The notes beneath the pieces were generated by a model. It worked only from the letters and a program-made list of their open reading frames with translations. It was not told the DNA's origin and did no database searches. Made by a program: the position numbers and the translations under genes. Below, piece by piece: positions 45,796-62,113 of a stretch of DNA of 64,000 bases. Within the stretch, counting starts at the first letter, position 1. Every line of letters begins with the position of its first letter. The DNA is taken from the IMG/VR virus record IMGVR_UViG_3300035130_000101, positions 1-64,000 of that record; one strand, 5' to 3'. This stretch comes from a virus.

Positions 45796-46545
45796 TTAGC
45801 CAATATGCAGAACTGCAACCCTGGCCTTTTGGTAAATTGTTTCTTTCAAATTCTTGATACTCTTATCGACAGGTATGTAATACTCCGATCCAGAATGACC
45901 AGCAGGGCAAAGCCATTTTGCTTCTAACGTTTGTCTAATAATATCTTCCTCCCAAACTATAAAAGTAGGGCAATCGCAAAAAATGCACTTCATCTCAAAA
46001 GAATCTATAGGTATAGTGTTCAACTTTCCTTCTTCGCAACGACTTTTTTCTTCTACAAATTGATCGGCATACTTAATAATTGCCCTTATAGTTGAATCCG
46101 TATCCCAAACTGCATCGTGCAACCAAGACGATAGCGGTTGTTCCCTGTACGAAATAATCAAATCGAAATATTCATTGAAAGTCATCTTTTTATCAGGATC
46201 ATATTTGGGATATTGCGGGGCTAACGTGTTGGCTATTACCCTAACGATAGACGACCATAAGTTTTTCAGGTTGGGAGTATATGATTGGGTTTTGCCTTGT
46301 GATTTTGGTTTAGGTGTCTCACTGTGCAAGTCAGCTATCCAATCTGGAAGATTATTACTCTTTTCAAGATTGCAACTGCTGCAAGACCAAACCAAATTCA
46401 AGATGGAATCAGTACCACCCCTTGACAACGGTATTAAGTGGTCACAATGACCGTTATCATCTACTTTGCCACAATGAAAACAAGTGGCATTATCTCGCCT
46501 TTTGACCAAGCTTCTCAGGCGACTCCAGCTAGTTTCCGTTGTCAT
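45796..46545 (-). CDS. HNH endonuclease (249 aa)
   Basis: CFHCGKVDDNGHCDHLIPLSRGGTDSILNLVWSCSSCNLEKSN. Confidence 0.8.
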   Translation of the reverse strand: MTTETSWSRLRSLVKRRDNATCFHCGKVDDNGHCDHLIPLSRGGTDSILNLVWSCSSCNLEKSNNLPDWIADLHSETPKPKSQGKTQSYTPNLKNLWSSIVRVIANTLAPQYPKYDPDKKMTFNEYFDLIISYREQPLSSWLHDAVWDTDSTIRAIIKYADQFVEEKSRCEEGKLNTIPIDSFEMKCIFCDCPTFIVWEEDIIRQTLEAKWLCPAGHSGSEYYIPVDKSIKNLKETIYQKARVAVLHIG

Positions 46546-53699: not shown

Positions 53700-56600
53700 T
53701 CATCCAATAAGCGCCTTTGCTACCTGATACTGCTGGATAACCGACTGCGGGGAGGCCAACGTGTTAACTGTCATATTGAACGTGTTATTTCTGTCGCCAC
53801 CACCTTTTAGCATCCCGGCTAATCGGTCCATAACCAGGCTGTCAATCGTCATCCCTCTCGGCGTGACAAGCAACTCCTCACCCGGCTCAAGGTACATCGG
53901 GCCAAACGTGTCACCCCGACCTTGCCCCGGTATTTTGTAGCCCAGGCCCAAGCCGTTTTGTAAACCGATACCCCGCATAAAGCCGATGCCTTTAGAAAAG
54001 CCGATGCCGGTTTGTGCGCCGGATGCACTGCCAGCATCCTGCGCTGCCCGTGCCGCCTCTTTAGCAGCCTCCGCCATTTTCCTGAAAGCCTCTTCTGCGT
54101 CCATAACGATCTCGATTAGATCATCGATAGCATCGGCAGCATCTTCCATATCGTCGACGATCTTTTCAGCCGCCCGAGATGCCGCTTCGCCTACTGCCGT
54201 GAAAGCCGAACCGAGAGCGTGAACGGCGGCAGTCAATTGATTGACCAGGGTCATAATAGCATTGATTGCGTCAGTGGCGGTTGTTTGGAGCGTCGGCAAC
54301 GTTAGCACGTAAATATCGATGAGTGCAGTATCAAGCGGTATTATCCCCGTATCTTTTAACAATAGTAGTTTCTCGGATATCAGATCATATGTCAGCGTGA
54401 AGGCATCTTGCAACAGGGGCAAAGTGATCTCTACAAAATCGAGAATGGATTGCACGAAAGCCGTCCATTGCTCCTGTACCGGTAGCAGTCCAGCAGAGAT
54501 AGATTCAAACGCTGCTAACGGGTCAGCAGTGTCAAACTCTGGTCCAGTTGACTCTTCCTCTCCGCCACCGAATAAGCTACTAAAAACACCGGTGACGGCT
54601 TCGACTGCTTTGCTTGCCAGCGAGCCTATGCCATCAATAAGACCCTGGATTAAATCAGCGCCAAAATCATAAAAAACGGTACTTGGTGAACTAATGCCAA
54701 GAGCTTCCTTAAAAGAGCTTATCAAAGCATTGGCACTTTCTGTTATAGCATTTTCCAAGTCCTGTTGAGCCTGTTTTATACCATTCTTGATACCATCTAT
54801 GATATTTGTGCCGACTACTTTAGCTATTGTTTTCATATTTTCGCCAATGCCATTTAGGACACTGGTAAGTTCGCTTATCGTCGCCGGCTCGACTTGTATG
54901 CCTATTTCATCGAGTAGGCCAGACACGATACCGGCGACGATTTGCGCCGCCAGTCCAACTATAGCTTGTGACACCGCCGATACTGCCGCTACCAGTCCGA
55001 TTATGATCTTGCCCAAGACCTTAGCCATCTCAGGGCCATTATCTCCAAAGTTACCAATTTGCTCGCCTAAAAATTGACCGATGGCAAAACCGGCATCTTT
55101 TAAGCCTGCTTGGGTTTCAGGTGATCCGGCCCATCTGATTATCTCCGCTACAACAACAATCAGTGCCTGAGTAGCCATATCAACGGCAGTATTAGTCCAT
55201 TCCCAAAATTTAGCAGCCCAGTCTGAGTGAGCCTCGATCAACTCCGGTGCATAGTCTCTAATCTTTTGCCCGACAAACCCGGTCAACTCAGCCATCTTAC
55301 CGGGACCATCAACGAGAGCGGTTACTGTCCAGTCCCAAAACTGATTGCCCCAAGTTGTTAATTGCGCCTCTATCTGAGGCCAAGCGTTATTGATAGTATC
55401 GACGATCATTTCAATGACCGCCTGAAAATCAGTCGCCCCGCTGCGAAATGCTTCTATCCAACTGCTGACAAAAGCGATGGCGTTTTCAAGCGCAGGCACA
55501 ACCTGATTATCCAGAGCATCGGTCAACGGGCCGGCAAAATCTGAGGCAAACGAGATACCCAGACTGATAAGCTGATTAACAAACGGCAATAGTCGAGTGC
55601 CAATCGTATCGGCCAGGGCGCGCAAGGTGTTTTTGAATAGCTGTATCTGACTTTTGGTGGTAGCGTATCGCTGCGCCGCCTCGTTTGCCAGGGCCGTGTT
55701 TTCCTCAAAAGCCCCGTTAGCCGTCTGTAAGGTGCGCTCTAACAGATCACCCGCCCCGGCCAGTGACAGAAATGACCGGATTAACCGTTGATCTTCCAGG
55801 CCCAACTCGGCCAGCGTATTAACAGCATCGTCACCTTGCGCCCCCAGGCCCTCGACAAAAGCCAGAAATGCTCCGCTTGCATCTTTCTCCCAAGCGGCCT
55901 TGAAATCCTCAACGGTCATATTAGACGTGGCTGCAAATGTCGCCAGCAGGTTACTATCTATCGGTTGCCCGTGCTGCTGCCTGAGTAAATCTGTTTCCGC
56001 TTGCAATTCCTGAATAGCCTGAGCTGTCTCAAAAGCCTTTTGCCGGGTCTTGTCGCCCAACTGCCGCCCGAACTCCTCAGCCGAGCCACCGGCGGCAATG
56101 AAAGCTTGCTCTTGCGCTAATAGCTCCGCTTGCAAGCCAGGAAATTGCGCCTCTAGCCTGGCGGATTCGGCATTGAGTTTTGTCAACTTGTCAACGTTCT
56201 TATCAATCTCATCTGTATAATCAACAAAGCCGGTAGCAGCCCCGGCCACGGCGTTATTGATTGCCAACAGAACCTTTTGTGTTGCCGTACCACCCGCTTC
56301 CGCCTCTACGCCAACCGATGACATTGCCGTACCGATGGCCAGTACATCAGCCTGGGTAAGCCCGGCTATTTTACCAGCCCCGGCTAGCCTCTCGCCAAAA
56401 GCCAAAATATCACGTTCTGTAGTAGCGAAGTTATTACCCAGGGCAACGATAGTCGAACCAAGTTGCTCGATATTCATCCCCATATCATCGGCGGAAATGT
56501 TGAAAATGTTGGAGATACGGGCCAGGCCGGTCGCAGCCTCTTCGGTCGAGAGGTTAGTTGATACACCCAGCGCGGCGACAGTTTCAGTAAATTCCAGTAG

Positions 56601-57044
56601 GGCATCTTTGCCGATACCCAATTGACCGCCCAGCTCACCGATAGCAGCTAATTCCTCGAAGGTCAAGGGGACTGTTTTTGTCAGATCAACAAAGCCAGCG
56701 CGCAACTCCTTGCCAGCTTCGTTCAATTCACCGATACCGGAAGTCAAGCCGTCTGTTGTTTTGATGACCCCGGCAAATGCATCTTCAAACGATATGGCCG
56801 TGGTAGTCGAGACAGTAGCCAGCGCGCCCACGCCAGCGGCCAGCGCGCCCACACCGGCGACGGCTACGCCTGCGGCAAGTTTGGCGGTACTGCCTAATGC
56901 GCTGCCGAGCTTGCCGAACATTCCGCCGGCTTTGTCGGCGGACTTACCTAAGCCAAGTTGGGCTTTGTCGGCTTTGGAGAGATCGCGGAGATATGAGTTA
57001 AGGTTGCGTGCTAAAAATTCTACTCCTACTGGTGTTAATGCCAC
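53700..57044 (-). CDS. tail tape measure protein
   Basis: 1114 aa, Ala/Gly/Leu-rich with long helical segments. TMP core-like AGKIAGLTQADVLAIGTAMSSVGVEAEAGGTA. GTG start with an AAGGA RBS. Confidence 0.85.
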   Translation of the reverse strand: MALTPVGVEFLARNLNSYLRDLSKADKAQLGLGKSADKAGGMFGKLGSALGSTAKLAAGVAVAGVGALAAGVGALATVSTTTAISFEDAFAGVIKTTDGLTSGIGELNEAGKELRAGFVDLTKTVPLTFEELAAIGELGGQLGIGKDALLEFTETVAALGVSTNLSTEEAATGLARISNIFNISADDMGMNIEQLGSTIVALGNNFATTERDILAFGERLAGAGKIAGLTQADVLAIGTAMSSVGVEAEAGGTATQKVLLAINNAVAGAATGFVDYTDEIDKNVDKLTKLNAESARLEAQFPGLQAELLAQEQAFIAAGGSAEEFGRQLGDKTRQKAFETAQAIQELQAETDLLRQQHGQPIDSNLLATFAATSNMTVEDFKAAWEKDASGAFLAFVEGLGAQGDDAVNTLAELGLEDQRLIRSFLSLAGAGDLLERTLQTANGAFEENTALANEAAQRYATTKSQIQLFKNTLRALADTIGTRLLPFVNQLISLGISFASDFAGPLTDALDNQVVPALENAIAFVSSWIEAFRSGATDFQAVIEMIVDTINNAWPQIEAQLTTWGNQFWDWTVTALVDGPGKMAELTGFVGQKIRDYAPELIEAHSDWAAKFWEWTNTAVDMATQALIVVVAEIIRWAGSPETQAGLKDAGFAIGQFLGEQIGNFGDNGPEMAKVLGKIIIGLVAAVSAVSQAIVGLAAQIVAGIVSGLLDEIGIQVEPATISELTSVLNGIGENMKTIAKVVGTNIIDGIKNGIKQAQQDLENAITESANALISSFKEALGISSPSTVFYDFGADLIQGLIDGIGSLASKAVEAVTGVFSSLFGGGEEESTGPEFDTADPLAAFESISAGLLPVQEQWTAFVQSILDFVEITLPLLQDAFTLTYDLISEKLLLLKDTGIIPLDTALIDIYVLTLPTLQTTATDAINAIMTLVNQLTAAVHALGSAFTAVGEAASRAAEKIVDDMEDAADAIDDLIEIVMDAEEAFRKMAEAAKEAARAAQDAGSASGAQTGIGFSKGIGFMRGIGLQNGLGLGYKIPGQGRGDTFGPMYLEPGEELLVTPRGMTIDSLVMDRLAGMLKGGGDRNNTFNMTVNTLASPQSVIQQYQVAKALIG

Positions 57045-57073
57045 TTGACAAAATCCTTAAACTAAGATACAAT
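57045..57073 (+). promoter_or_regulatory. sigma70-type promoter (upstream of tandem pair)
   Basis: TTGACA, 17-nt spacer, TACAAT. It abuts the tape-measure start codon on the other strand. Confidence 0.55.
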
Positions 57074-57089
57074 AATTCTTGCCAGACAG

Positions 57090-57118
57090 TTGACTGAATA
57101 GAATGGTTGATATAAAAT
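57090..57118 (+). promoter_or_regulatory. sigma70-type promoter
   Basis: TTGACT, 17-nt spacer, TAAAAT. Confidence 0.55.
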
Positions 57119-57125
57119 TACAAAT

Positions 57126-57192
57126 ACTCTCCTCTGCTTTGGTCAATTGTCTGGCGACAAAGGCCATTCCAAAAGCGGAGGAGTTTTTTATT
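57126..57192 (+). promoter_or_regulatory. leader with terminator-like hairpin (attenuator or small RNA)
   Basis: CTCCTCTGCTTTGG (57129-57142) pairs with CCAAAAGCGGAGGAG (57169-57183), followed by TTTTTT. It ends 3 nt before the AAGGAG RBS of 57207. Confidence 0.45.
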
Positions 57193-57206
57193 GCAAGGAG
57201 ATAGCT

Positions 57207-57824
57207 ATGAGCAATATCGTTAAAGCAAAGGTCAAGGTAAGGGGCACTCGCCCATTTTGGCAACATCGTTTTGGCCCGGAAGCATTGCCACTCGAAAAGA
57301 AGGAAAAGACGGGCGTCGCCGGCAACAACCCCGAAGAATGGAGACAGACGGCAATGGTCAATAAAGACGGACAGCTTTTCTTTGAAGGTACTTACATTTT
57401 TGGTTCGCTGCGTGAGGCTGCAAAGTACACGAAGCGAGGCCGGGCATCCCTGCAAAAGCCGGTTGCCGCTACGCTTCAAATCTTGGAAGATAGAATCCTG
57501 CTTGATCGCTTTTTCCCCGGCTTTCCCAACGGTCACAAATTCGACATCGCTACCGTTGAAGAGCTGCCACGCGACCAGGAAGAATTGGTCTATTTGGACG
57601 TGAGAGGCGTCGTGAATCCATCGACGCGAGGCCGGAACGTGCGCTATCGGGTCGCTGCTTCTCCTGGTTGGCAAACCGAGTTTACCATTATGTTTGATAA
57701 GACCATTGTCAGCCGGAATGAAATGGAAGCTATCTTGATTGACGCCGGGCGACTGGTTGGCATCGGCAATGGTCGGACTATCGGAATGGGCCGGTTTGAG
57801 GTTGAACAGTTCGAGTGCGAGTGA
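57207..57824 (+). CDS. unknown protein, paralog A (Gly-rich C-terminal loop)
   Basis: AAGGAG RBS. 205 aa, clearly paralogous to 60128..60706. Ends GIGNGRTIGMGRFEV. Confidence 0.65.
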   Translation: MSNIVKAKVKVRGTRPFWQHRFGPEALPLEKKEKTGVAGNNPEEWRQTAMVNKDGQLFFEGTYIFGSLREAAKYTKRGRASLQKPVAATLQILEDRILLDRFFPGFPNGHKFDIATVEELPRDQEELVYLDVRGVVNPSTRGRNVRYRVAASPGWQTEFTIMFDKTIVSRNEMEAILIDAGRLVGIGNGRTIGMGRFEVEQFECE

Positions 57825-58086
57825 TATTACGGGGTCCGGTACAGTAGGGCGCAGCGGGGTAAGGTGTGGTAGAGTTTGGTACAGCGAGTTACGGTCCAGC
57901 TTGGCAAGCCATAGCAAGGAAAACAAATCTAATTTACGCGATATAGTATAACGCGGTCGAGTCGGGTTTTGTCCGGCAAGGATATGTCGAGTCAGGTTAG
58001 GCTGAGTCGGGTTAGGTCTCGTAAAGCGATGCAAGAAAAACAAACTAAACCACCACGAGGCGTAGTAGGGAACGGTAAGGTGGGGT
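57825..58086 (+). repeat. GT-rich, C-poor spacer with short repeats
   Basis: GAGTC(G/A)GGTT occurs three times (57959, 57989, 58004). GGTGTGGTAGAGT (57863) is also at 58489. GTTAGG(C/T) lies at 57996 and 58011. Confidence 0.6.
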
Positions 58087-58440
58087 ATGGCTCGCTTGTG
58101 TTCGGTCGAGTTAAGCAAAGCAAGGGATTTAATGCCAAAATCAAGACAGCCACAAGCAATATGGCAAGCCACCCGCCAAAGAGTTTGGCTTAGGGACAAG
58201 GGCCGTTGCCAGGGACCATACTGCAAAGATAAGCCTGAATGGTCCCTATCTCTGAAAGAGTGCCATATTGACCATATTCGCTCTGGCAAGTTGGCTACAA
58301 ACAAATCGAGTAACCTCCGTGTTTTATGCCGTCGCTGCCATACCCTTAGAGCCGACAACAGGCATCGGGGTATGATAGCTTCTGCCCTACGTGCTAACAT
58401 AATTCCTGCCAATTGGCGTGAATTAGTCTGGGATGACTGA
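58087..58440 (+). CDS. HNH endonuclease
   Basis: CQGPYCKD...CHIDHIRSGKLATNKSSNLRVLCRRCHTLR. AAGGTGG RBS. Confidence 0.8.
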   Translation: MARLCSVELSKARDLMPKSRQPQAIWQATRQRVWLRDKGRCQGPYCKDKPEWSLSLKECHIDHIRSGKLATNKSSNLRVLCRRCHTLRADNRHRGMIASALRANIIPANWRELVWDD

Positions 58441-58524
58441 CCCGGCTTGGCGCAGCAGAGCAAGGATCAGCACCGACCGGCGTGGTGGGGTGTGGTAGAG
58501 TGCAGTTTAGTATCGCAAGGATAA
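58441..58524 (+). repeat. GT-rich spacer
   Basis: Contains GGTGTGGTAGAGT (58489-58501). Confidence 0.5.
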
Positions 58525-58546
58525 GGGCCAGCAATGGCCCTTTTTT
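58525..58546 (+). terminator. rho-independent terminator
   Basis: GGGCCA gcaa TGGCCC TTTTTT. Confidence 0.7.
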
Positions 58547-58661
58547 CTTTTGTGCGCCGGTCGGTGTCAGCGGCATTTTTTACCTTTTCTCTTCGCAAAA
58601 ACAACATTTTGCGAAGTAAAATATCCAACCTTAAAAGTGTGCAAATTGGTATTGAGGACTA

Positions 58662-58690
58662 TTGACAAGTGAACACTTATCTGCTATAAT
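58662..58690 (+). promoter_or_regulatory. sigma70 consensus promoter
   Basis: ACTATTGACA, 17-nt spacer, TATAAT. Confidence 0.7.
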
Positions 58691-58723
58691 AAGTACATCA
58701 AACAGTAAGAAAGGATTAAGAAA

Positions 58724-58942
58724 ATGACTAAGCAGTTCAGATTTGTAGGTTTTTCTCATAAAACTTGGGAACCCGGTTGTCGAAATCTTGGTATGGTGTG
58801 GGCTTCTTCCATCGATGAAGCTCGGCAAGCCTTCAAAGAGAACGGCTTAGCTCCTCCGGTTATAAAACGAAAATTAGGCGACGCTTCTTATCGTCTAGTG
58901 GATGATAACGGTAATGTCACTAAAGAAATGATTTTTCGCTAA
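58724..58942 (+). CDS. hypothetical small protein
   Basis: 72-aa ORF. Confidence 0.55.
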   Translation: MTKQFRFVGFSHKTWEPGCRNLGMVWASSIDEARQAFKENGLAPPVIKRKLGDASYRLVDDNGNVTKEMIFR

Positions 58943-58993
58943 CCACCCACCCGCCCCGCCGGTGGCCTCGTAACCGGCAGAAAGGTACTTAAG

Positions 58994-59197
58994 ATGAAAG
59001 ATATGGCATATTTTGTTAATCTGGTAGATGAGGCCAAGAAAACCAGAGATAATATTGGCGAGATGTTCAATGAAGCCTACTATGCCAAGCAAGATACTAC
59101 TCGTTTACAACGGTTATTTGATAAAGCTACCGACCGCATCTTGCGCCGGATGGGTTATGTCTGGTTATTAGACCAGGCGAAAAATTTCAAAGAGTAA
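58994..59197 (+). CDS. hypothetical small protein
   Basis: 67-aa ORF. Confidence 0.55.
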   Translation: MKDMAYFVNLVDEAKKTRDNIGEMFNEAYYAKQDTTRLQRLFDKATDRILRRMGYVWLLDQAKNFKE

Positions 59198-59242
59198 CCA
59201 CTTAATGGCCCGCCCGGGGCCTATCCGGGCAAAGGTGCTAAA

Positions 59243-59404
59243 ATGTTTTTGTCGCAGTCAGATTTTTCTCACTTGTTCAATGTTCTCAGGTCGGTTTATC
59301 CCAGTGACCTATACTCTGACAATGATTTGCTCGACTTCCTGGCTACACTAGACCACGTTCCAGATAATGATGAATTGTTAGACTTGTTCGAGGAGGCAAT
59401 GTAA
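59243..59404 (+). CDS. very acidic small protein (53 aa, not in ORF track)
   Basis: Hand translation: MFLSQSDFSHLFNVLRSVYPSDLYSDNDLLDFLATLDHVPDNDELLDLFEEAM. AAAGGTG RBS. TAATG junction with the next gene. Confidence 0.45.
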   Translation: MFLSQSDFSHLFNVLRSVYPSDLYSDNDLLDFLATLDHVPDNDELLDLFEEAM

Positions 59405-59604
59405 TGTCATCTTCTCTCAAATCCCAACACCGCATCCAGCTTGACCCCGGCAACTTCGCCCGGCTGCAAGACATCGCCAAGCGGCTTGGCTACGTTCACC
59501 GGGCCGGGCCAGGAGCCGGTAAGGTCGGGTCGGTAAGCACGTTGATGGACGCAATCGCAAACCAAGAATCCGTAGTATCGTTAGCCAAAGAAAGGAATGA
59601 ATGA
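59404..59604 (+). CDS. hypothetical small protein (possible DNA-binding)
   Basis: 66-aa ORF: IQLDPGNFARLQDIAKRLGY. Confidence 0.5.
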   Translation: MSSSLKSQHRIQLDPGNFARLQDIAKRLGYVHRAGPGAGKVGSVSTLMDAIANQESVVSLAKERNE

Positions 59605-59861
59605 TGACCGATTATCAGATGATAAAGGAATACCTTGCAAGGCAAGTCAAGGAATGCGAACAGGCCATTATTAAATTTACAAATCGAGCAAACTTTGACG
59701 CAGGATTGGTGGCCGAGTTTCAAAGCTATGAACCCGATGTAGCTCTTATTTATGCTCAATGGCATCGCTTTCATCGAGATAAAGTCATCTATTTTCAAAA
59801 AACGCTGGCGGTATTTCAAGATCGTTATTATGACTTTACCAAGTTTGACCCTAACCCTTAA
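59601..59861 (+). CDS. hypothetical small protein
   Basis: 86-aa ORF with an ATGA junction. Confidence 0.55.
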   Translation: MMTDYQMIKEYLARQVKECEQAIIKFTNRANFDAGLVAEFQSYEPDVALIYAQWHRFHRDKVIYFQKTLAVFQDRYYDFTKFDPNP

Positions 59862-59868
59862 CCACCTC

Positions 59869-59891
59869 GCCCCCGCAAGGGGGCTTTTTTT
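59869..59891 (+). terminator. rho-independent terminator
   Basis: GCCCCC gcaa GGGGGC TTTTTTT. Confidence 0.75.
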
Positions 59892-59928
59892 ATTTCCCCT
59901 TTTTCGGCTTGACGTAATTTGCATCACT

Positions 59929-59957
59929 TTGACACCAATAATCATTTGTGATATAAT
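59929..59957 (+). promoter_or_regulatory. sigma70 consensus promoter
   Basis: TTGACA, 17-nt spacer, TATAAT. Confidence 0.7.
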
Positions 59958-59964
59958 ATCCCTT

Positions 59965-60075
59965 GTCAGACTAAACGGTTTGCGAGGGCGCTTTTTTGTT
60001 GCCCACAATTAACCGAATAATTGCGGATAGACCGCCCGGCTTGAATAGGGTAAGCGCCCAAACCGTTAGTCTGAC
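59965..60075 (+). promoter_or_regulatory. long structured 5' leader
   Basis: GTCAGACTAAACGGTTTG..GGCGC (59965-59991) pairs with GCGCCCAAACCGTTAGTCTGAC (60054-60075). It starts at the predicted TSS. Confidence 0.45.
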
Positions 60076-60127
60076 AACTAAGGTTTTTCGAGCCGGGCGT
60101 TCTGTTTGCAAGAAAGAAAGGGTCACT

Positions 60128-60706
60128 GTGTATACCGTTGATGTATCTGTAGAAGGTGTTGCGCCATTGCTGCAACACAAGTTCCCGTTGCCGGACTTCT
60201 CCGATCTTGGCAAGGGAGGCAAACAGTCCACGGGAGAAAAGGATTATACTGAGGAATGGAAGGATTATCTGTACGTAGATTCCGATGGCGAAATCTTTCA
60301 ACCTGCCGTTCACTTTGACGGCTGTATGGTCAAGGCCGCCGTCAATTTCAAAATCCAGGGCAAGCGCGGCAAAACCTACAAAGATTTGTTCAAAGGTAAC
60401 GTGTTCTGTTCGCCGGATGAAATTCTGCACGGTATTAAAGCTCCTGAAACTTTGGACAATGACGCCGACAAGCCGCTTTATTTGGATATTCGCCCCGTTG
60501 TTATCAGCCGGGCCAGGGTAGTCAGGATTCGCCCCGCTTTTGCACCGGGCTGGAAACTGAGCTTTGAGATTGAAATCCTTGACGATCAAATTCCTGCCAA
60601 CGTTGTTAATGAGGTTCTGTCCCTGGCCGGTAAGACCGTCGGTGTCGGTGATTTTCGCCCCCGTTTTGGCCGGTTTATGGTTACGAGGTTTGAGGTTCGG
60701 AAGTAG
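60128..60706 (+). CDS. unknown protein, paralog B
   Basis: A GTG start is chosen by alignment with paralog A; the track starts at TTG 59996. Ends GVGDFRPRFGRFMV. Confidence 0.6.
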   Translation: MYTVDVSVEGVAPLLQHKFPLPDFSDLGKGGKQSTGEKDYTEEWKDYLYVDSDGEIFQPAVHFDGCMVKAAVNFKIQGKRGKTYKDLFKGNVFCSPDEILHGIKAPETLDNDADKPLYLDIRPVVISRARVVRIRPAFAPGWKLSFEIEILDDQIPANVVNEVLSLAGKTVGVGDFRPRFGRFMVTRFEVRK

Positions 60707-60960
60707 ACTTTGTGGTAAGGGTGGGCAACGGTCAGGTAAGGTCCGGTAGTGGCAGGCTAGGAGAGGTTTAGTCCGGTATCGGTGTGACCTGGTGAGGGAA
60801 GGTCTGGTAAGGTAAAGTGAGGTAAGGGAAGTCTTGTGGTAAGGGAAAGGTGAAGTCGGATCGGGTGAGCTAAGATTGGGTGGGGTGTGGATTGGTGAGA
60901 ATTGGCGCGGGCAGGTGAGGCAGAATAAGGTAAGGTTATCCAAATATTCGGTTGTCTGTT
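60707..60960 (+). repeat. GT-rich, C-poor spacer (GGTAAGG-type degenerate repeats)
   Basis: By hand count, about 25 C in ~245 nt. (C)TTGTGGTAAGGG lies at 60708 and 60832. Confidence 0.6.
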
Positions 60961-61227
60961 ATGTCAAAGTATTTTACAGTAAACGAACTCCCTGGTTTGC
61001 ATTTTCTATGGTATTCTCGATTGCCGCTTGATGTCTGGTTGCCGCTCAAGCAATACGTCTATCAAAGAGACGGCGGTATCTGCCAGTATTGCGGTAATCA
61101 GTTTGCCTACGAAAAAACTCACTGTCATCACGTTTTAGAATTATGTGAAGGCGGTACAAACCACCCCACGAACCTCAAGACGCTTTGCATTGATTGCCAT
61201 AAAACCAGACACCCGTTTATGAAGTAA
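60961..61227 (+). CDS. HNH endonuclease
   Basis: CQYCGNQFAYEKTHCHHVLELCEGGTNHPTNLKTLCIDCH. ATG 60961 with a weak RBS; the track starts at TTG 60952. Confidence 0.75.
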   Translation: MSKYFTVNELPGLHFLWYSRLPLDVWLPLKQYVYQRDGGICQYCGNQFAYEKTHCHHVLELCEGGTNHPTNLKTLCIDCHKTRHPFMK

Positions 61228-61319
61228 TCTTGTGGCAGGGCCGTGGTACGGTGATGTGATGTGAGTTTTGGTGCGGCAAGGTGCGTCCGGGTGATGTAAG
61301 GATTGGCTTGGTAAGGTAA
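61228..61319 (+). repeat. GT-rich spacer
   Basis: Begins TCTTGTGGCAGGG immediately after the stop codon. Confidence 0.5.
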
Positions 61320-61351
61320 GGGTAGATTAAGTTCTACCCTTTTTTGTTTTT
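61320..61351 (+). terminator. rho-independent terminator of the plus-strand insert
   Basis: GGGTAGA ttaagt TCTACCC TTTTTTGTTTTT. Confidence 0.7.
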
Positions 61352-61606
61352 GGCATATTTGCATCGCTTACGTGCGCCTCGATTAGTAAACTTGCTTGAT
61401 GATAGGCAATCATTTCAGCTACAAATTCTCTTGGATATTCACCACGTCTTAACTTTAATAATTCATCTAAACCGGCTCCGCAATATATCGCTGCCCTAAA
61501 TTGAGAGAATAATCCTAAGCTACCATTGTGACTTGTAATCCCTACTGGCTTTCCAGAGCGAAGCGGATATTCTTCAATTGCAATACCGTTTCTTTTAATC
61601 CCGAAA
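61327..61606 (-). other. start-less 91-codon frame continuing the chaperone-like gene (+1 frame)
   Basis: Open from 61636 to the TAA at 61327-61329, with no ATG/GTG/TTG before codon ~65 counted from the slip site. It is reachable from 61595..62113 by a +1 slip at UUU CGG (61601-61606). Confidence 0.3.
61574..61587. repeat. junction palindrome, partial
   Basis: TCAATTGCAATACC; 7 nt after stop 61595, inside the +1 extension frame. Confidence 0.4.
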
Positions 61607-62113
61607 GCGAGATTTGGCCGCTGCCAAGTCCTCCTCGCTTACGCCTGAAAGCATTGACAGCAAATTCCAATCGTCTGCCCCCAAAGCAAAATATCGTATA
61701 AAGACAAAGCGACGTTCAAACTCATCGTCAAGATCGTAGTCATCCAGGTTCAGATGGCCCCGCTTCGCCAGAAAGCGCAACTTCTTGAGCCAGGCATCAT
61801 CTGCCGGCAGGCCGTCAACCAATTCAACGCCGAGCATCGCCATTACATCAAAGCCCGCCTGTACCCGTTTGGCGAAGGCTTCCTGTTTGGCCGCGAGGTA
61901 GTCCGGGTCGTTTGGGTTTTCAACCGGATAATCTTTTCCCTCTACTTTTTGCTTTGGTACAGGCGGGTCTTTGATTGCCGTCGCCGCTTCCTGAATGGTA
62001 GCAGTAGGCACGGGGATAAGGCGAACCGTTATACCGGTCGATAGCTTGATCGGTTCGTCCAGATTGAGTTGTCCGTTCTTCTTTGCCGCGTCAACGGCGG
62101 GGCTTCTGGCCAT
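61595..62113 (-). CDS. putative tail assembly chaperone (gpG-like)
   Basis: 172 aa, acidic. It is the last minus-strand gene before the tape measure if the plus-strand insert is ignored. Confidence 0.45.
   Translation of the reverse strand: MARSPAVDAAKKNGQLNLDEPIKLSTGITVRLIPVPTATIQEAATAIKDPPVPKQKVEGKDYPVENPNDPDYLAAKQEAFAKRVQAGFDVMAMLGVELVDGLPADDAWLKKLRFLAKRGHLNLDDYDLDDEFERRFVFIRYFALGADDWNLLSMLSGVSEEDLAAAKSRFRD

What the first reader, a model, noticed from the sequence alone, without database searches (positions are those of the whole stretch)
57045..61351. Two paralogous 'unknown protein + HNH' modules inserted antisense between tail chaperone and tape measure
Seen in sequence: a 4.3-kb plus-strand block interrupts the minus-strand tail operon. 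It holds three units. (1) Tandem promoters, a hairpin leader, a 205-aa protein (57207..57824), a 262-nt GT-rich spacer, HNH (58087..58440) and a terminator. (2) A consensus promoter, five tiny ORFs and a terminator. (3) A consensus promoter, a long hairpin leader, a 192-aa paralog (60128..60706), a 254-nt GT-rich spacer, HNH (60961..61227), another GT-rich stretch and a terminator. The paralogs align along their whole length: VKVRGTRPFWQH/VSVEGVAPLLQH, EEWRQTAMVNKDGQLFF/EEWKDYLYVDSDGEIFQ, YLDVRGVV..VRYRVAASPGWQTEFTI/YLDIRPVV..VRIRPAFAPGWKLSFEI, and GIGNGRTIGMGRFEV/GVGDFRPRFGRFMV. The C-terminal G-h-G-x5-G-h-G motif and the (D)G..F..G.YIFGSLREAA segment are reminiscent of RAMP (Cas5/6/7) glycine-rich loops. 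That resemblance is weak and unverified. Inference: this is a duplicated, autonomously transcribed two-gene system (RNA- or DNA-binding protein plus nuclease, possibly with a non-coding component). It may be a mobile homing unit or a defence/counter-defence moron.
Basis: partly seen in the sequence, partly recalled or inferred. Interest (0 to 1): 0.65.

Follow-up and report, generated by a model that had tools for sequence, protein, structure and literature searches.

The report
Twin VIPR–HNH guide-RNA cassettes in phage
The block is two tandem copies of a phage RNA-guided DNA-targeting system first described in 2026 (VIPR: a CRISPR-like RAMP protein plus five-base-repeat guide RNAs), each with its own HNH nuclease, and one guide matches the start of the tape-measure gene in sister phages that lack the insert, which points to sibling exclusion or RNA-guided homing.

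Summary
A 4.3-kb plus-strand block sits between the tail chaperone and the tape-measure gene. Sister phages have these two genes adjacent.

The two paralogs are Vipr proteins, the RAMP effector of VIPR systems (bioRxiv 10.64898/2026.04.26.720920 and .720927). A family profile hits PDB 36pp 'SUSP1 Vipr protein' at E=6e-17. The AF2 model matches Csm3/Cas7.

They are arrays of (G/R)GY-NN pentanucleotide repeats, that is, vrRNA guides. There are about four for module A and three for module B.

The HNH gene is an obligate partner. It lies directly downstream in 75 of 80 genomic loci and 34 of 44 viral loci.

Decoded by the published one-base-skip rule, guide vrA4 matches 27 of 30 positions at the RBS, ATG and first 13 codons of the tape-measure gene. 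The match is in three insert-free sister phages, about 20-65 nt from the empty insertion site. The window's own allele matches only 19 of 30. Controls (other skip lengths, shuffled order, wrong decoding offset) reach at most 23 of 30.

Verdict: a new member of a very recently described kind. There is an unreported hint of RNA-guided homing or sibling exclusion. Targets of the other guides were not found.

The parts
57045..57118 (+). Tandem promoter-like sites of module A (57045-57073, 57090-57118). The first overlaps the RBS region of the tape-measure gene on the other strand.
   Evidence: junction alignment
57079..57157 (+). Long hairpin in the module A leader.
   Evidence: ViennaRNA fold
57207..57824 (+). 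vipr-A: a Vipr RAMP protein of 205 aa. Its G-loop GIGNGRTIGMGRF has N and G where SUSP1 Vipr has D177 and W178.
57833..57954 (+). vrA1: 17 xGY-NN repeats (57833-57917) plus a 3' tail (GCAAGGAAAAC... and a small hairpin).
57955..58058 (+). vrA2: 16 repeats (57955-58034) plus a 3' tail.
58059..58131 (+). vrA3: 13 repeats (58059-58123). Its tail carries the RBS of HNH-A.
58132..58440 (+). HNH-A accessory nuclease, 102 aa from the conserved start MPKSRQP. The CxxxxC...HIDH...N...CxxCH motif is intact.
   Evidence: Pfam HNH 28.6 bits against a 21.4 cutoff; start from orthologues; adjacency
58444..58542 (+). vrA4: 15 repeats (58444-58518), tail, and terminator hairpin 58523-58542. This is the guide whose NN code matches the tape-measure start of the sister phages.
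58662..59884 (+). Unit 2: consensus promoter, five ORFs of 53-86 aa, terminator. Unrelated cargo, not part of VIPR.
59929..60111 (+). Module B promoter (59929-59957) and structured leader. The leader has two interleaved helices: P1 59963-59982/60059-60077 and P2 60021-60045/60087-60111.
60128..60706 (+). vipr-B: a Vipr RAMP protein of 192 aa. Its G-loop GVGDFRPRFGRF keeps the SUSP1 D177 / aromatic / R179 triad.
60710..60945 (+). vrB1 (about 60710-60831) and vrB2 (about 60834-60945). Each unit starts with TTGTGGTAAGGG and consists of GGY-NN repeats with a few irregular units.
   Evidence: (D6)
60961..61227 (+). HNH-B accessory nuclease, 88 aa.
   Evidence: Pfam HNH 37.9 bits; orthologues directly downstream of B-clade vipr genes
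61230..61341 (+). vrB3 (TTGTGGCAGGG..., 15 repeats at 61245-61319) and terminator 61318-61341.
53700..57044 (-). Flank: tape-measure gene. Its first 13 codons are the homologue of the vrA4 target but match the guide at only 19 of 30 positions.
61327..62113 (-). Flank: 172-aa tail-chaperone-like gene (61595-62113) with a frameshift extension ending at TAA 61329-61327.

Best explanation
The block holds two independent VIPR (Viral Interference Programmable Repeat) cassettes inserted into the tail operon of an uncultured siphophage. Between them sits an unrelated five-ORF moron.

Each cassette is one transcription unit with these parts: promoter, structured leader, vipr (a single-RRM RAMP with thumb and G-loop), an array of pentanucleotide-repeat guide RNAs (vrRNAs), a small HNH nuclease, one more vrRNA, and a terminator.

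By homology to the solved SUSP1 system, one Vipr protomer binds each (G/R)GY triplet. The protomers form a helical filament that presents the two variable bases of every repeat. These NN bases pair with DNA while skipping every third target base.

Shown here: guide vrA4 encodes the RBS, ATG and first 13 codons of the tape-measure gene of sister phages that lack the cassette. The phage's own allele is mismatched.

Inferred: during co-infection the Vipr-A/vrA4 filament binds that site in the sibling genome. The co-evolving HNH-A then cuts it, or at the least the filament blocks tape-measure expression. Either way the cassette-free sibling is disabled.

Cassette B, with a Vipr only 32% identical, its own HNH and its own repeat handle, is most likely an orthogonal second weapon with other targets.
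For: Family membership:
- A profile of the family hits PDB 36pp_D 'SUSP1 Vipr protein' at E=6e-17 over the full length.
- BLASTP to SUSP1 Vipr gives 1e-15 for B and 8e-12 for A.
- Both paralogs hit phrog_4652, which includes the Felixounavirus/SUSP1 genes.
- The AF2 model (pLDDT 87, pTM 0.82) is a single RRM with a beta-hairpin thumb. Its best PDB matches are Csm3/Cas7 at E about 1e-8.
- The SUSP1 functional residues H17, K33, R138 and R179 are conserved in both paralogs. D177 and an aromatic at position 178 are kept in B.

Guide arrays:
- They show 5-nt periodicity, occur on the plus strand only, and occur only in these two modules.
- Across 31 B-clade units and 32 A-clade units from other loci, the G-G-Y columns carry 0.4-1.6 bits and the NN columns 0.0-0.2 bits.

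HNH partnership: the HNH gene lies -37 to +394 nt downstream in 75 of 80 genomic loci and in 34 of 44 viral loci, and each clade has its own HNH orthologue.

Target of vrA4:
- It matches 27/30, 27/30, 25/30 and 23/30 NN positions in four sibling alleles. The first ten repeats match 20/20 in two of them, and the skipped base is the codon wobble position.
- Only the 1-nt skip gives this match; skips of 0, 2 and 3 give 19-20.
- Only decoding positions 4-5 of the repeat works.
- 300 shuffles of NN order reach at most 23.
- The window's own allele matches 19/30.
- No part of the window matches any guide.

The mechanism of filament formation and the skip rule come from the two preprints.
Against: - Only one of about eight guides has an identified target. 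Seed scans of IMG/VR, GTDB genomes and metagenomes gave only chance-level hits.
- No expression, RNP or cleavage data exist for this clade.
- The characterised VIPRs (type II) silence transcription without a nuclease. A site spanning the RBS and ATG is also ideal for pure silencing.
- Vipr-A lacks two SUSP1 contact residues (D177N, W178G). A third of its repeats start with A rather than G, so transferring the SUSP1 mechanism to it is an extrapolation. It is supported by the perfect NN match across AGC, GGA and CGA repeats.
- The matching siblings are only about 67-74% identical in DNA near the site. They may therefore not be the exact natural victims.
Confidence: 0.8

Rival explanations
1. RNA-guided homing. 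The HNH, guided by vrA4, cuts the cassette-free allele next to the empty insertion site. Recombinational repair from the cassette-bearing genome then copies the whole cassette, together with the resistant tape-measure 5' end, into the sibling. This extends the best explanation rather than contradicting it.
For: - The target lies about 20-65 nt from the insertion junction in insert-free siblings. For a random essential-gene target in a ~70-kb genome, that proximity has a chance of about 0.3%.
- The phage's own allele is resistant (19/30).
- A nuclease is an obligate partner.
- The cassette occurs in unrelated genomic contexts, so it is mobile.
- The site is a cargo hotspot (L222).
Against: - No cleavage or gene-conversion evidence exists.
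- Flank identity to the known siblings is low for efficient recombination.
- Only one locus was examined.
- The other guides have no junction targets.
- The preprints do not report homing.
Confidence: 0.35
2. Silencing only. Vipr/vrRNA filaments repress transcription or translation of the sibling tape-measure gene, as shown for type II VIPR. The HNH would have another role, for example vrRNA array processing or a generic accessory function.
For: - Type II VIPR represses without a nuclease.
- The vrA4 target covers the RBS and ATG. The guide is complementary to the mRNA-sense strand, and VIPR can pair with RNA.
- The arrays flank the HNH gene on one transcript.
Against: - The HNH catalytic and zinc motifs are intact and conserved over more than 100 loci.
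- The preprint itself interprets nuclease-bearing types as destroying their targets.
- HNH enzymes are typically DNases (general knowledge).
Confidence: 0.25
3. Two ordinary free-standing HNH homing endonuclease genes, each next to an unrelated unknown protein. On this view the GT-rich DNA is compositional noise.
For: Small HNH genes are common selfish inserts between phage structural genes. The window has a third HNH at 45796-46545.
Against: - The HNH co-occurs and co-diverges with vipr.
- The arrays are 5-nt periodic, and the conserved GGY and variable NN pattern holds across dozens of loci.
- A guide decodes to a real target only under the published rule.
Confidence: 0.02
4. A degenerate CRISPR-Cas remnant or an anti-CRISPR decoy: a Cas6/Cas7-like protein with solitary repeat units.
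For: There are weak Pfam RAMP (E=0.0055) and PADLOC Cas6/Csm4 hits on the G-loop. The fold matches Csm3.
Against: - The block has no CRISPR repeats and no other cas genes, and no Rfam family matches.
- The protein belongs to the Vipr clade, with a solved homologue.
- The repeats are pentanucleotides, not 25-40-nt CRISPR repeats.
Confidence: 0.02

Closest known systems
VIPR type II systems (Escherichia phage SUSP1, Pseudomonas fulva prophage; bioRxiv 10.64898/2026.04.26.720920 and .720927; PDB 36pp)
   Same: A homologous Vipr RAMP (26-27% identity over the full length). GGY-NN pentanucleotide guide arrays flank the gene. Target matching follows the one-base skip, with the skipped base at the codon wobble position. 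The system is phage-encoded, aimed at related mobile elements, and does not target itself.
   Different: The accessory gene here is a small HNH nuclease, not the DNA-binding Vap1. The arrays sit between vipr and the HNH gene and after it. Two divergent cassettes lie in tandem; none of about 120 other loci fetched has two vipr genes. Module A uses relaxed repeats (35% A at position 1) and its Vipr has D177N and W178G. The identified target is the cassette-free allele beside the cassette's own insertion site.
Nuclease-associated VIPR types III and V (same preprint)
   Same: A Vipr with a predicted nuclease accessory gene. An HNH-domain Vap is shown in the preprint's fig. S21.
   Different: The preprint describes these types as enriched in host defence islands and acting as antiviral host immunity, some with a single vrRNA. 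Here the system is inside the tail operon of a bona fide phage (TerL, tape measure), has 3-4 vrRNAs per cassette, and is aimed at a sibling phage.
CRISPR class 1 backbone RAMPs (Csm3/Cmr4/Cas7) and the HNH-bearing Cascade variants (Cas5-HNH, Cas8-HNH)
   Same: An RRM, thumb and G-loop fold. The protein filaments on a guide RNA with periodic base flipping. In the HNH-Cascade variants an HNH supplies the cut (that point from my own knowledge; the fold).
   Different: The period is 5 nt with only 2 of 5 bases read, against 6 nt with 5 of 6 read. There are no CRISPR repeats, no Cas1/Cas2 and no large or small subunits. The HNH is a separate 88-102-aa protein.
Free-standing phage homing endonucleases (for example T4 Mob/Seg and SPO1-type HNH genes) and the RNA-guided transposon nucleases TnpB/IscB
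   Same: A nuclease gene is inserted between conserved genes and absent from close relatives. The recognition site is in the insert-free allele close to the insertion point. The element's own allele is resistant.
   Different: Specificity here would come from a RAMP filament with a pentanucleotide-repeat guide. It would not come from the nuclease protein itself or from a contiguous omega-RNA/reRNA guide. Homing is inferred, not shown.

Membership tests
VIPR system | A Vipr protein: a single-RRM RAMP with thumb and glycine-rich loop, homologous to SUSP1 Vipr. | tested here: met
   Profile against PDB 36pp_D gives E=6e-17. BLASTP gives 1e-15 and 8e-12. The AF2 model has pLDDT 87, and Foldseek matches Csm3 at E about 1e-8 with TM about 0.5.
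VIPR system | Conservation of the SUSP1 residues that hold the GGY triplet and the DNA (H17, K33, R138, D177, W178, R179). | tested here: inconclusive
   Vipr-B has H, K, R, D, F and R, so all are kept (W to F is conservative). Vipr-A has H, K, R and R but N for D177 and G for W178. A link between D-to-N/S and A at repeat position 1 is seen in the window and in L011 but is not consistent across 11 such loci.
VIPR system | Tandem YNNGG (GGY-NN) pentanucleotide arrays of at least 4 units flanking vipr, on the vipr strand. | tested here: met
   The window has eight chains of 9-18 repeats, six of them with 12 or more, against 0.36 expected in shuffles. There are none elsewhere in the 64 kb.
VIPR system | GGY conserved and NN hypervariable among related loci, with a conserved handle or tail. 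| tested here: met
   Column information is 0.4-1.6 bits for G, G and Y and 0.0-0.2 bits for NN, measured on 31 B-clade and 32 A-clade units. B units share the 5' handle TTGTGGyrrGG. A units share the 3' end xGCAAGG. The tail pseudoknot was not tested.
VIPR system | Natural targets found by the 1-nt skip rule at 80% or more NN match, with no self-targeting. | tested here: met
   vrA4 matches 27/30 (90%) with skip 1 only, and the controls reach at most 23. The best self match is 19/30, and no run of 6 or more repeats matches anywhere in the window. No target was found for the other guides.
VIPR system | vrRNAs are expressed, processed and co-purify with Vipr. | not testable with these tools
   This needs small-RNA sequencing and a pull-down. 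Only promoters and terminators are predicted.
VIPR system | A minimal locus (vipr plus one accessory vap gene) with no CRISPR array or cas genes. | tested here: met
   Each cassette is vipr plus HNH. No tandem repeats other than one 19-nt hit, and no Rfam family. HNH adjacency holds in 75 of 80 genomic and 34 of 44 viral loci.
VIPR type III/V (nuclease-associated, host defence) | Located in host defence islands and targeting viruses on behalf of the host. | tested here: not met
   The locus is inside a phage tail operon (TerL and tape measure). It is absent from sibling phages. Its guide targets a sibling phage. The phylogenetic type could not be assigned.
Homing endonuclease element | A nuclease cassette present or absent between conserved genes, a recognition site in the empty allele near the insertion point, and a resistant own allele. 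| tested here: met
   Recognition is inferred from the guide match.
Homing endonuclease element | Double-strand cleavage of the empty allele and copying of the element by repair. | not testable with these tools
   This needs cleavage assays and mixed-infection genetics.
CRISPR-Cas | A CRISPR repeat-spacer array together with cas genes (Cas1/2, and Cas5/6/7/8 or Cas10). | tested here: not met
   Searches gave only sub-threshold RAMP/Cas6 G-loop hits.

The most novel reading that the evidence does not exclude
The cassette is an RNA-guided homing element. A RAMP filament reads a pentanucleotide-repeat guide and directs a separate mini-HNH to cut the cassette-free tape-measure allele right next to the empty insertion site. 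This drives the cassette, and the linked resistant allele, into sibling phages during co-infection. The tandem second cassette, with an orthogonal Vipr, HNH and repeat handle, would be a stacked second drive or weapon. If true, this would be the first RAMP-based RNA-guided homing system. It would also give a selfish-element rationale for why VIPR loci spread among phages, which bears on the proposed VIPR-to-CRISPR origin story.
Probability: 0.35. Interest if true: 0.85.

Novelty: new member of a known kind. Interest (0 to 1): 0.62.

Why it matters
VIPR was described only in 2026 and only type II has been characterised. This locus adds four things.
- It shows an HNH-bearing VIPR in an unmistakable phage, doubled into two divergent cassettes.
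- It gives an independent, purely computational confirmation of the one-base-skip code in a distant clade. That clade has relaxed repeats and a Vipr with an altered G-loop.
- It provides a concrete natural target: the tape-measure start of insert-free siblings, beside the insertion site.
- That target turns 'what do nuclease VIPRs do in phages?' into a directly testable homing or exclusion experiment.

It also flags a conserved, covarying leader RNA that the preprint texts do not mention.

Tried and rejected
- Family libraries. Pfam, PADLOC and Rfam did not name the family: only sub-threshold RAMP/Cas6 hits and no RNA family. The PDB sequence search gave the name.
- Felixounavirus partner gene. 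I first asked whether the 146-aa gene downstream of the Felixounavirus homologue was an HNH. It is not. It corresponds to the preprint's Vap1.
- Target scans with exact 18-20-nt gapped seeds. These covered vrA1 5', 3' and centre, vrA2 5', 3' and centre, vrA4 3' and centre, vrB2 and vrB3, against IMG/VR, GTDB genomes and JGI metagenomes. Each scan gave 0-3 viral hits or 7-22 genomic hits, as expected by chance, and none extended to 80% or more. The vrA1 hit in L052 (26/34) and the vrB2-core hit in a T4-like small-terminase gene (20/24, in frame) remain unresolved and are treated as chance.
- Split or partial self-targets, which would suggest autoregulation. None was found.
- Peptide-level decoding of all guides against the window's proteome. 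Only vrA4 recovered a site, the window's own tape-measure N-terminus.
- A covariation between Vipr D177-to-N/S and A at repeat position 1. It is suggestive in the window and L011 but inconsistent overall. I do not claim it.
- VIPR type assignment. It failed because the classification data are not in the accessible text.
- Host assignment. It failed: TerL has only remote cultured relatives. The closest Vipr-A homologues are in Pyrinomonadaceae and Armatimonadota MAGs. The siblings come from Hainich groundwater metagenomes.
- A second contig carrying the locus (L142). It is 100% identical and adds nothing.

Full report
**What is there.** ORF listing confirms the block: paralog A (57207-57824), paralog B (60128-60706), two small HNH genes, and five ORFs of 53-86 aa between them. 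All are on the plus strand. The block lies between the minus-strand tape-measure gene (53700-57044; PHROG tape measure E=8e-79) and a 172-aa minus-strand gene (61595-62113).

Consensus scans give promoters at 57045, 57090, 58662 and 59929 and terminators at 58523, 59869 and 61318. GC skew turns strongly positive exactly in the 'spacers'.

**The paralogs are RAMPs of the Vipr family.** Both hit phrog_4652, of unknown function (E=9e-11 and 2e-21). Pfam gives only a sub-threshold RAMP hit, and PADLOC gives Cas6/Csm4 G-loop hits.

The big protein database holds 372 relatives of B and 1567 of A, nearly all unnamed. A 55-sequence alignment shows 32% identity between A and B. Invariant residues are H20, K31, E44, W45, three Arg in one strand, and GxGxxRxxGxGRF at the C-terminus.

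A profile of this alignment hits one solved structure, 36pp 'SUSP1 Vipr protein', at E=6e-17 over the full length. That name led to two 2026 preprints describing VIPR systems.

The AF2 model of paralog A (pLDDT 87, pTM 0.82) is a single RRM with an inserted helical region and a beta-hairpin thumb. Its best PDB matches are Csm3/Cas7 subunits (E about 1e-8, TM about 0.5).

The SUSP1 residues that read the repeat (H17, R138, D177, W178, R179) and K33 map as follows:
- Vipr-B: H, R, D, F, R and K.
- Vipr-A: H, R, N, G, R and K.

**The 'GT-rich spacers' are guide arrays.** Autocorrelation of GG peaks at lags 5 and 10. When the spacers are split at GG, nearly all pieces are multiples of 5 nt.

Parsing in register gives these arrays:
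- vrA1: 17 repeats.
- vrA2: 16 repeats.
- vrA3: 13 repeats.
- vrA4: 15 repeats.
- vrB1, vrB2 and vrB3: these begin at repeated TTGTGG(T/C)A(A/G)GG handles.

In the whole 64-kb window, long chains occur only here and only on the plus strand. Six chains have 12 or more repeats, against 0.36 expected in block shuffles that keep local composition.

I compared 44 IMG/VR loci and 80 genomic loci that encode relatives. Long arrays sit next to vipr in nearly all of them.

Units were anchored on the B-clade 5' handle or the A-clade 3' end. In both sets G1, G2 and Y3 carry information and the two N positions carry almost none. That is the defining vrRNA signature.

**HNH is an obligate partner.** An orthologue of HNH-A lies -37 to +394 nt downstream of vipr in 75 of 80 genomic loci. 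The other five are truncated or fragmentary. HNH-A or HNH-B orthologues follow vipr in 34 of 44 viral loci, with each Vipr clade keeping its own HNH clade.

All 16 HNH-A orthologues examined start with a conserved MP(K/R)xR(Q/P)P motif, so the window's gene starts at 58132. The five small ORFs occur in no other VIPR locus and have no family hit, so they are separate cargo.

**It is an insertion.** One metagenome scan with the 172-aa protein found siblings L190, L191 and L192 (Hainich groundwater; proteins 78-81% identical). Their gene order is p503, p76, the 172-aa gene, then the tape measure, with only about 110 nt between the end of a frameshift extension of the 172-aa gene and the tape-measure ATG.

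The extension is conserved in the window and ends at 61327. This supports the tail-chaperone (G/GT-like) reading. Homology resumes about 20 nt upstream of the window's tape-measure start. The insert is therefore about 57062-61334.

A fourth sibling, L222, carries a different 118-aa ORF at the same site, so the site is a cargo hotspot.

**A natural target.** I scanned all decoded guides against the sibling loci. vrA4 matches 27 of 30 NN positions in L191 and L192, 25 of 30 in L190 and 23 of 30 in L222. The match is on the strand antisense to the tape-measure gene and covers TTTTTG-ATG plus 12 further codons (13 in all). The skipped base falls on the wobble position, and the first ten repeats match 20/20.

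Controls:
- Skip lengths 0, 2 and 3 give 19-20.
- The four wrong decoding offsets give 20-23.
- 300 shuffles of NN order give at most 23.

A binomial estimate for this search space is about 3e-7. Sub-guide scans find no other hit in the siblings.

The window's own homologous site matches 19 of 30. Nothing in the window matches any run of 6 or more repeats of any guide.

The perfectly matched part of vrA4 includes repeats reading AGC, GGA and CGA. The relaxed repeats of module A are therefore functional code, not decay.

**How it most likely works.** Shown by homologues in the preprints: Vipr protomers polymerise one per repeat, sequester the GGY triplet, present the NN bases, and form a gapped R-loop with DNA.

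Shown here: family membership, guide arrays, the obligate HNH, the insertion polymorphism, the guide-target match and self-immunity.

Inferred: the filament recruits the HNH to cut the sibling's tape-measure start, or blocks its expression, during co-infection.

The target lies beside the cassette's own insertion site and the cassette is mobile across unrelated contexts. RNA-guided homing is therefore a serious possibility, which I put at about 0.35. Neither preprint mentions homing.

**What remains open.**
- Targets of the other guides were not found with exact-seed scans.
- The host is unknown.
- The VIPR type could not be assigned.
- It is not clear how the tape measure is transcribed against three strong opposing promoters.

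**Comparison and novelty.** This is a member of the VIPR kind. It differs from the characterised type II in its accessory gene, array placement, duplication and relaxed repeats. It differs from the described nuclease types in being phage-borne and sibling-directed. I therefore file it as a new member of a known, very recent kind, with a possible new behaviour.

Noticed in passing
window 59963-60111; also L038 3864-3977, L042 3857-3961, L043 3875-3985, L044 3877-3985, L006, L039: B-clade vipr genes have a ~130-nt leader with two long interleaved helices, P1 and P2, in a pseudoknot topology. Both helices are kept although the sequences differ completely between loci, which is covariation. A T-run followed by ATTCGCC is also shared. 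The function is unknown, and the leader is not mentioned in the text of the VIPR preprints.
   Followed up: partly
window 58662-59884: A self-contained unit with a perfect consensus promoter, five ORFs of 53-86 aa and a terminator. It has no homologues in about 120 VIPR loci and no family hits. The layout resembles anti-defence (acr-aca-like) operons, but that is only a guess.
   Followed up: partly
L222 462-818: A fourth sibling phage carries a different cargo gene (118 aa, same strand as the tail genes) at the same chaperone/tape-measure intergenic site, so the site is an insertion hotspot.
   Followed up: partly
window 61327-61600 (-): The 172-aa gene continues by frameshift into a conserved extension, as in G/GT tail chaperones. 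The last codons of the extension overlap the terminator hairpin of VIPR cassette B.
   Followed up: partly
window 57045-61341: Three strong plus-strand promoters fire head-on against the tail operon between chaperone and tape measure. How the tape-measure gene is transcribed in this phage is unexplained.
   Followed up: no
window 45796-46545 (-): A third HNH-domain protein (249 aa), unrelated to the VIPR cassettes.
   Followed up: no
window 60879-60938; L139 7916-7951, L140, L141: The well-formed core of vrB2 matches 20 of 24 NN positions, in frame, in the small-terminase-like gene of three T4-like viral contigs. The hit came from an 18-nt seed scan with about one chance hit expected, so it may be coincidence.
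   Followed up: partly
window 57833-58518: Module A repeats start with A in 35% of units, against about 4% in loci whose Vipr keeps Asp at the SUSP1 D177 position. Vipr-A has Asn there. The correlation across other loci is inconsistent.
   Followed up: partly
L048 5891 to L006 3197; L051 544 to L021 8476: An all-against-all scan of decoded guides from about 120 VIPR loci gave two further cross-locus matches at 80-88% NN.
   Followed up: no
L006 3853-5055: A TnpB-like gene (OrfB_IS605 plus a Cas12f1-like TNB domain) lies 1 kb upstream of a B-clade vipr in an 89.7-kb (89,736-nt) contig.
   Followed up: no
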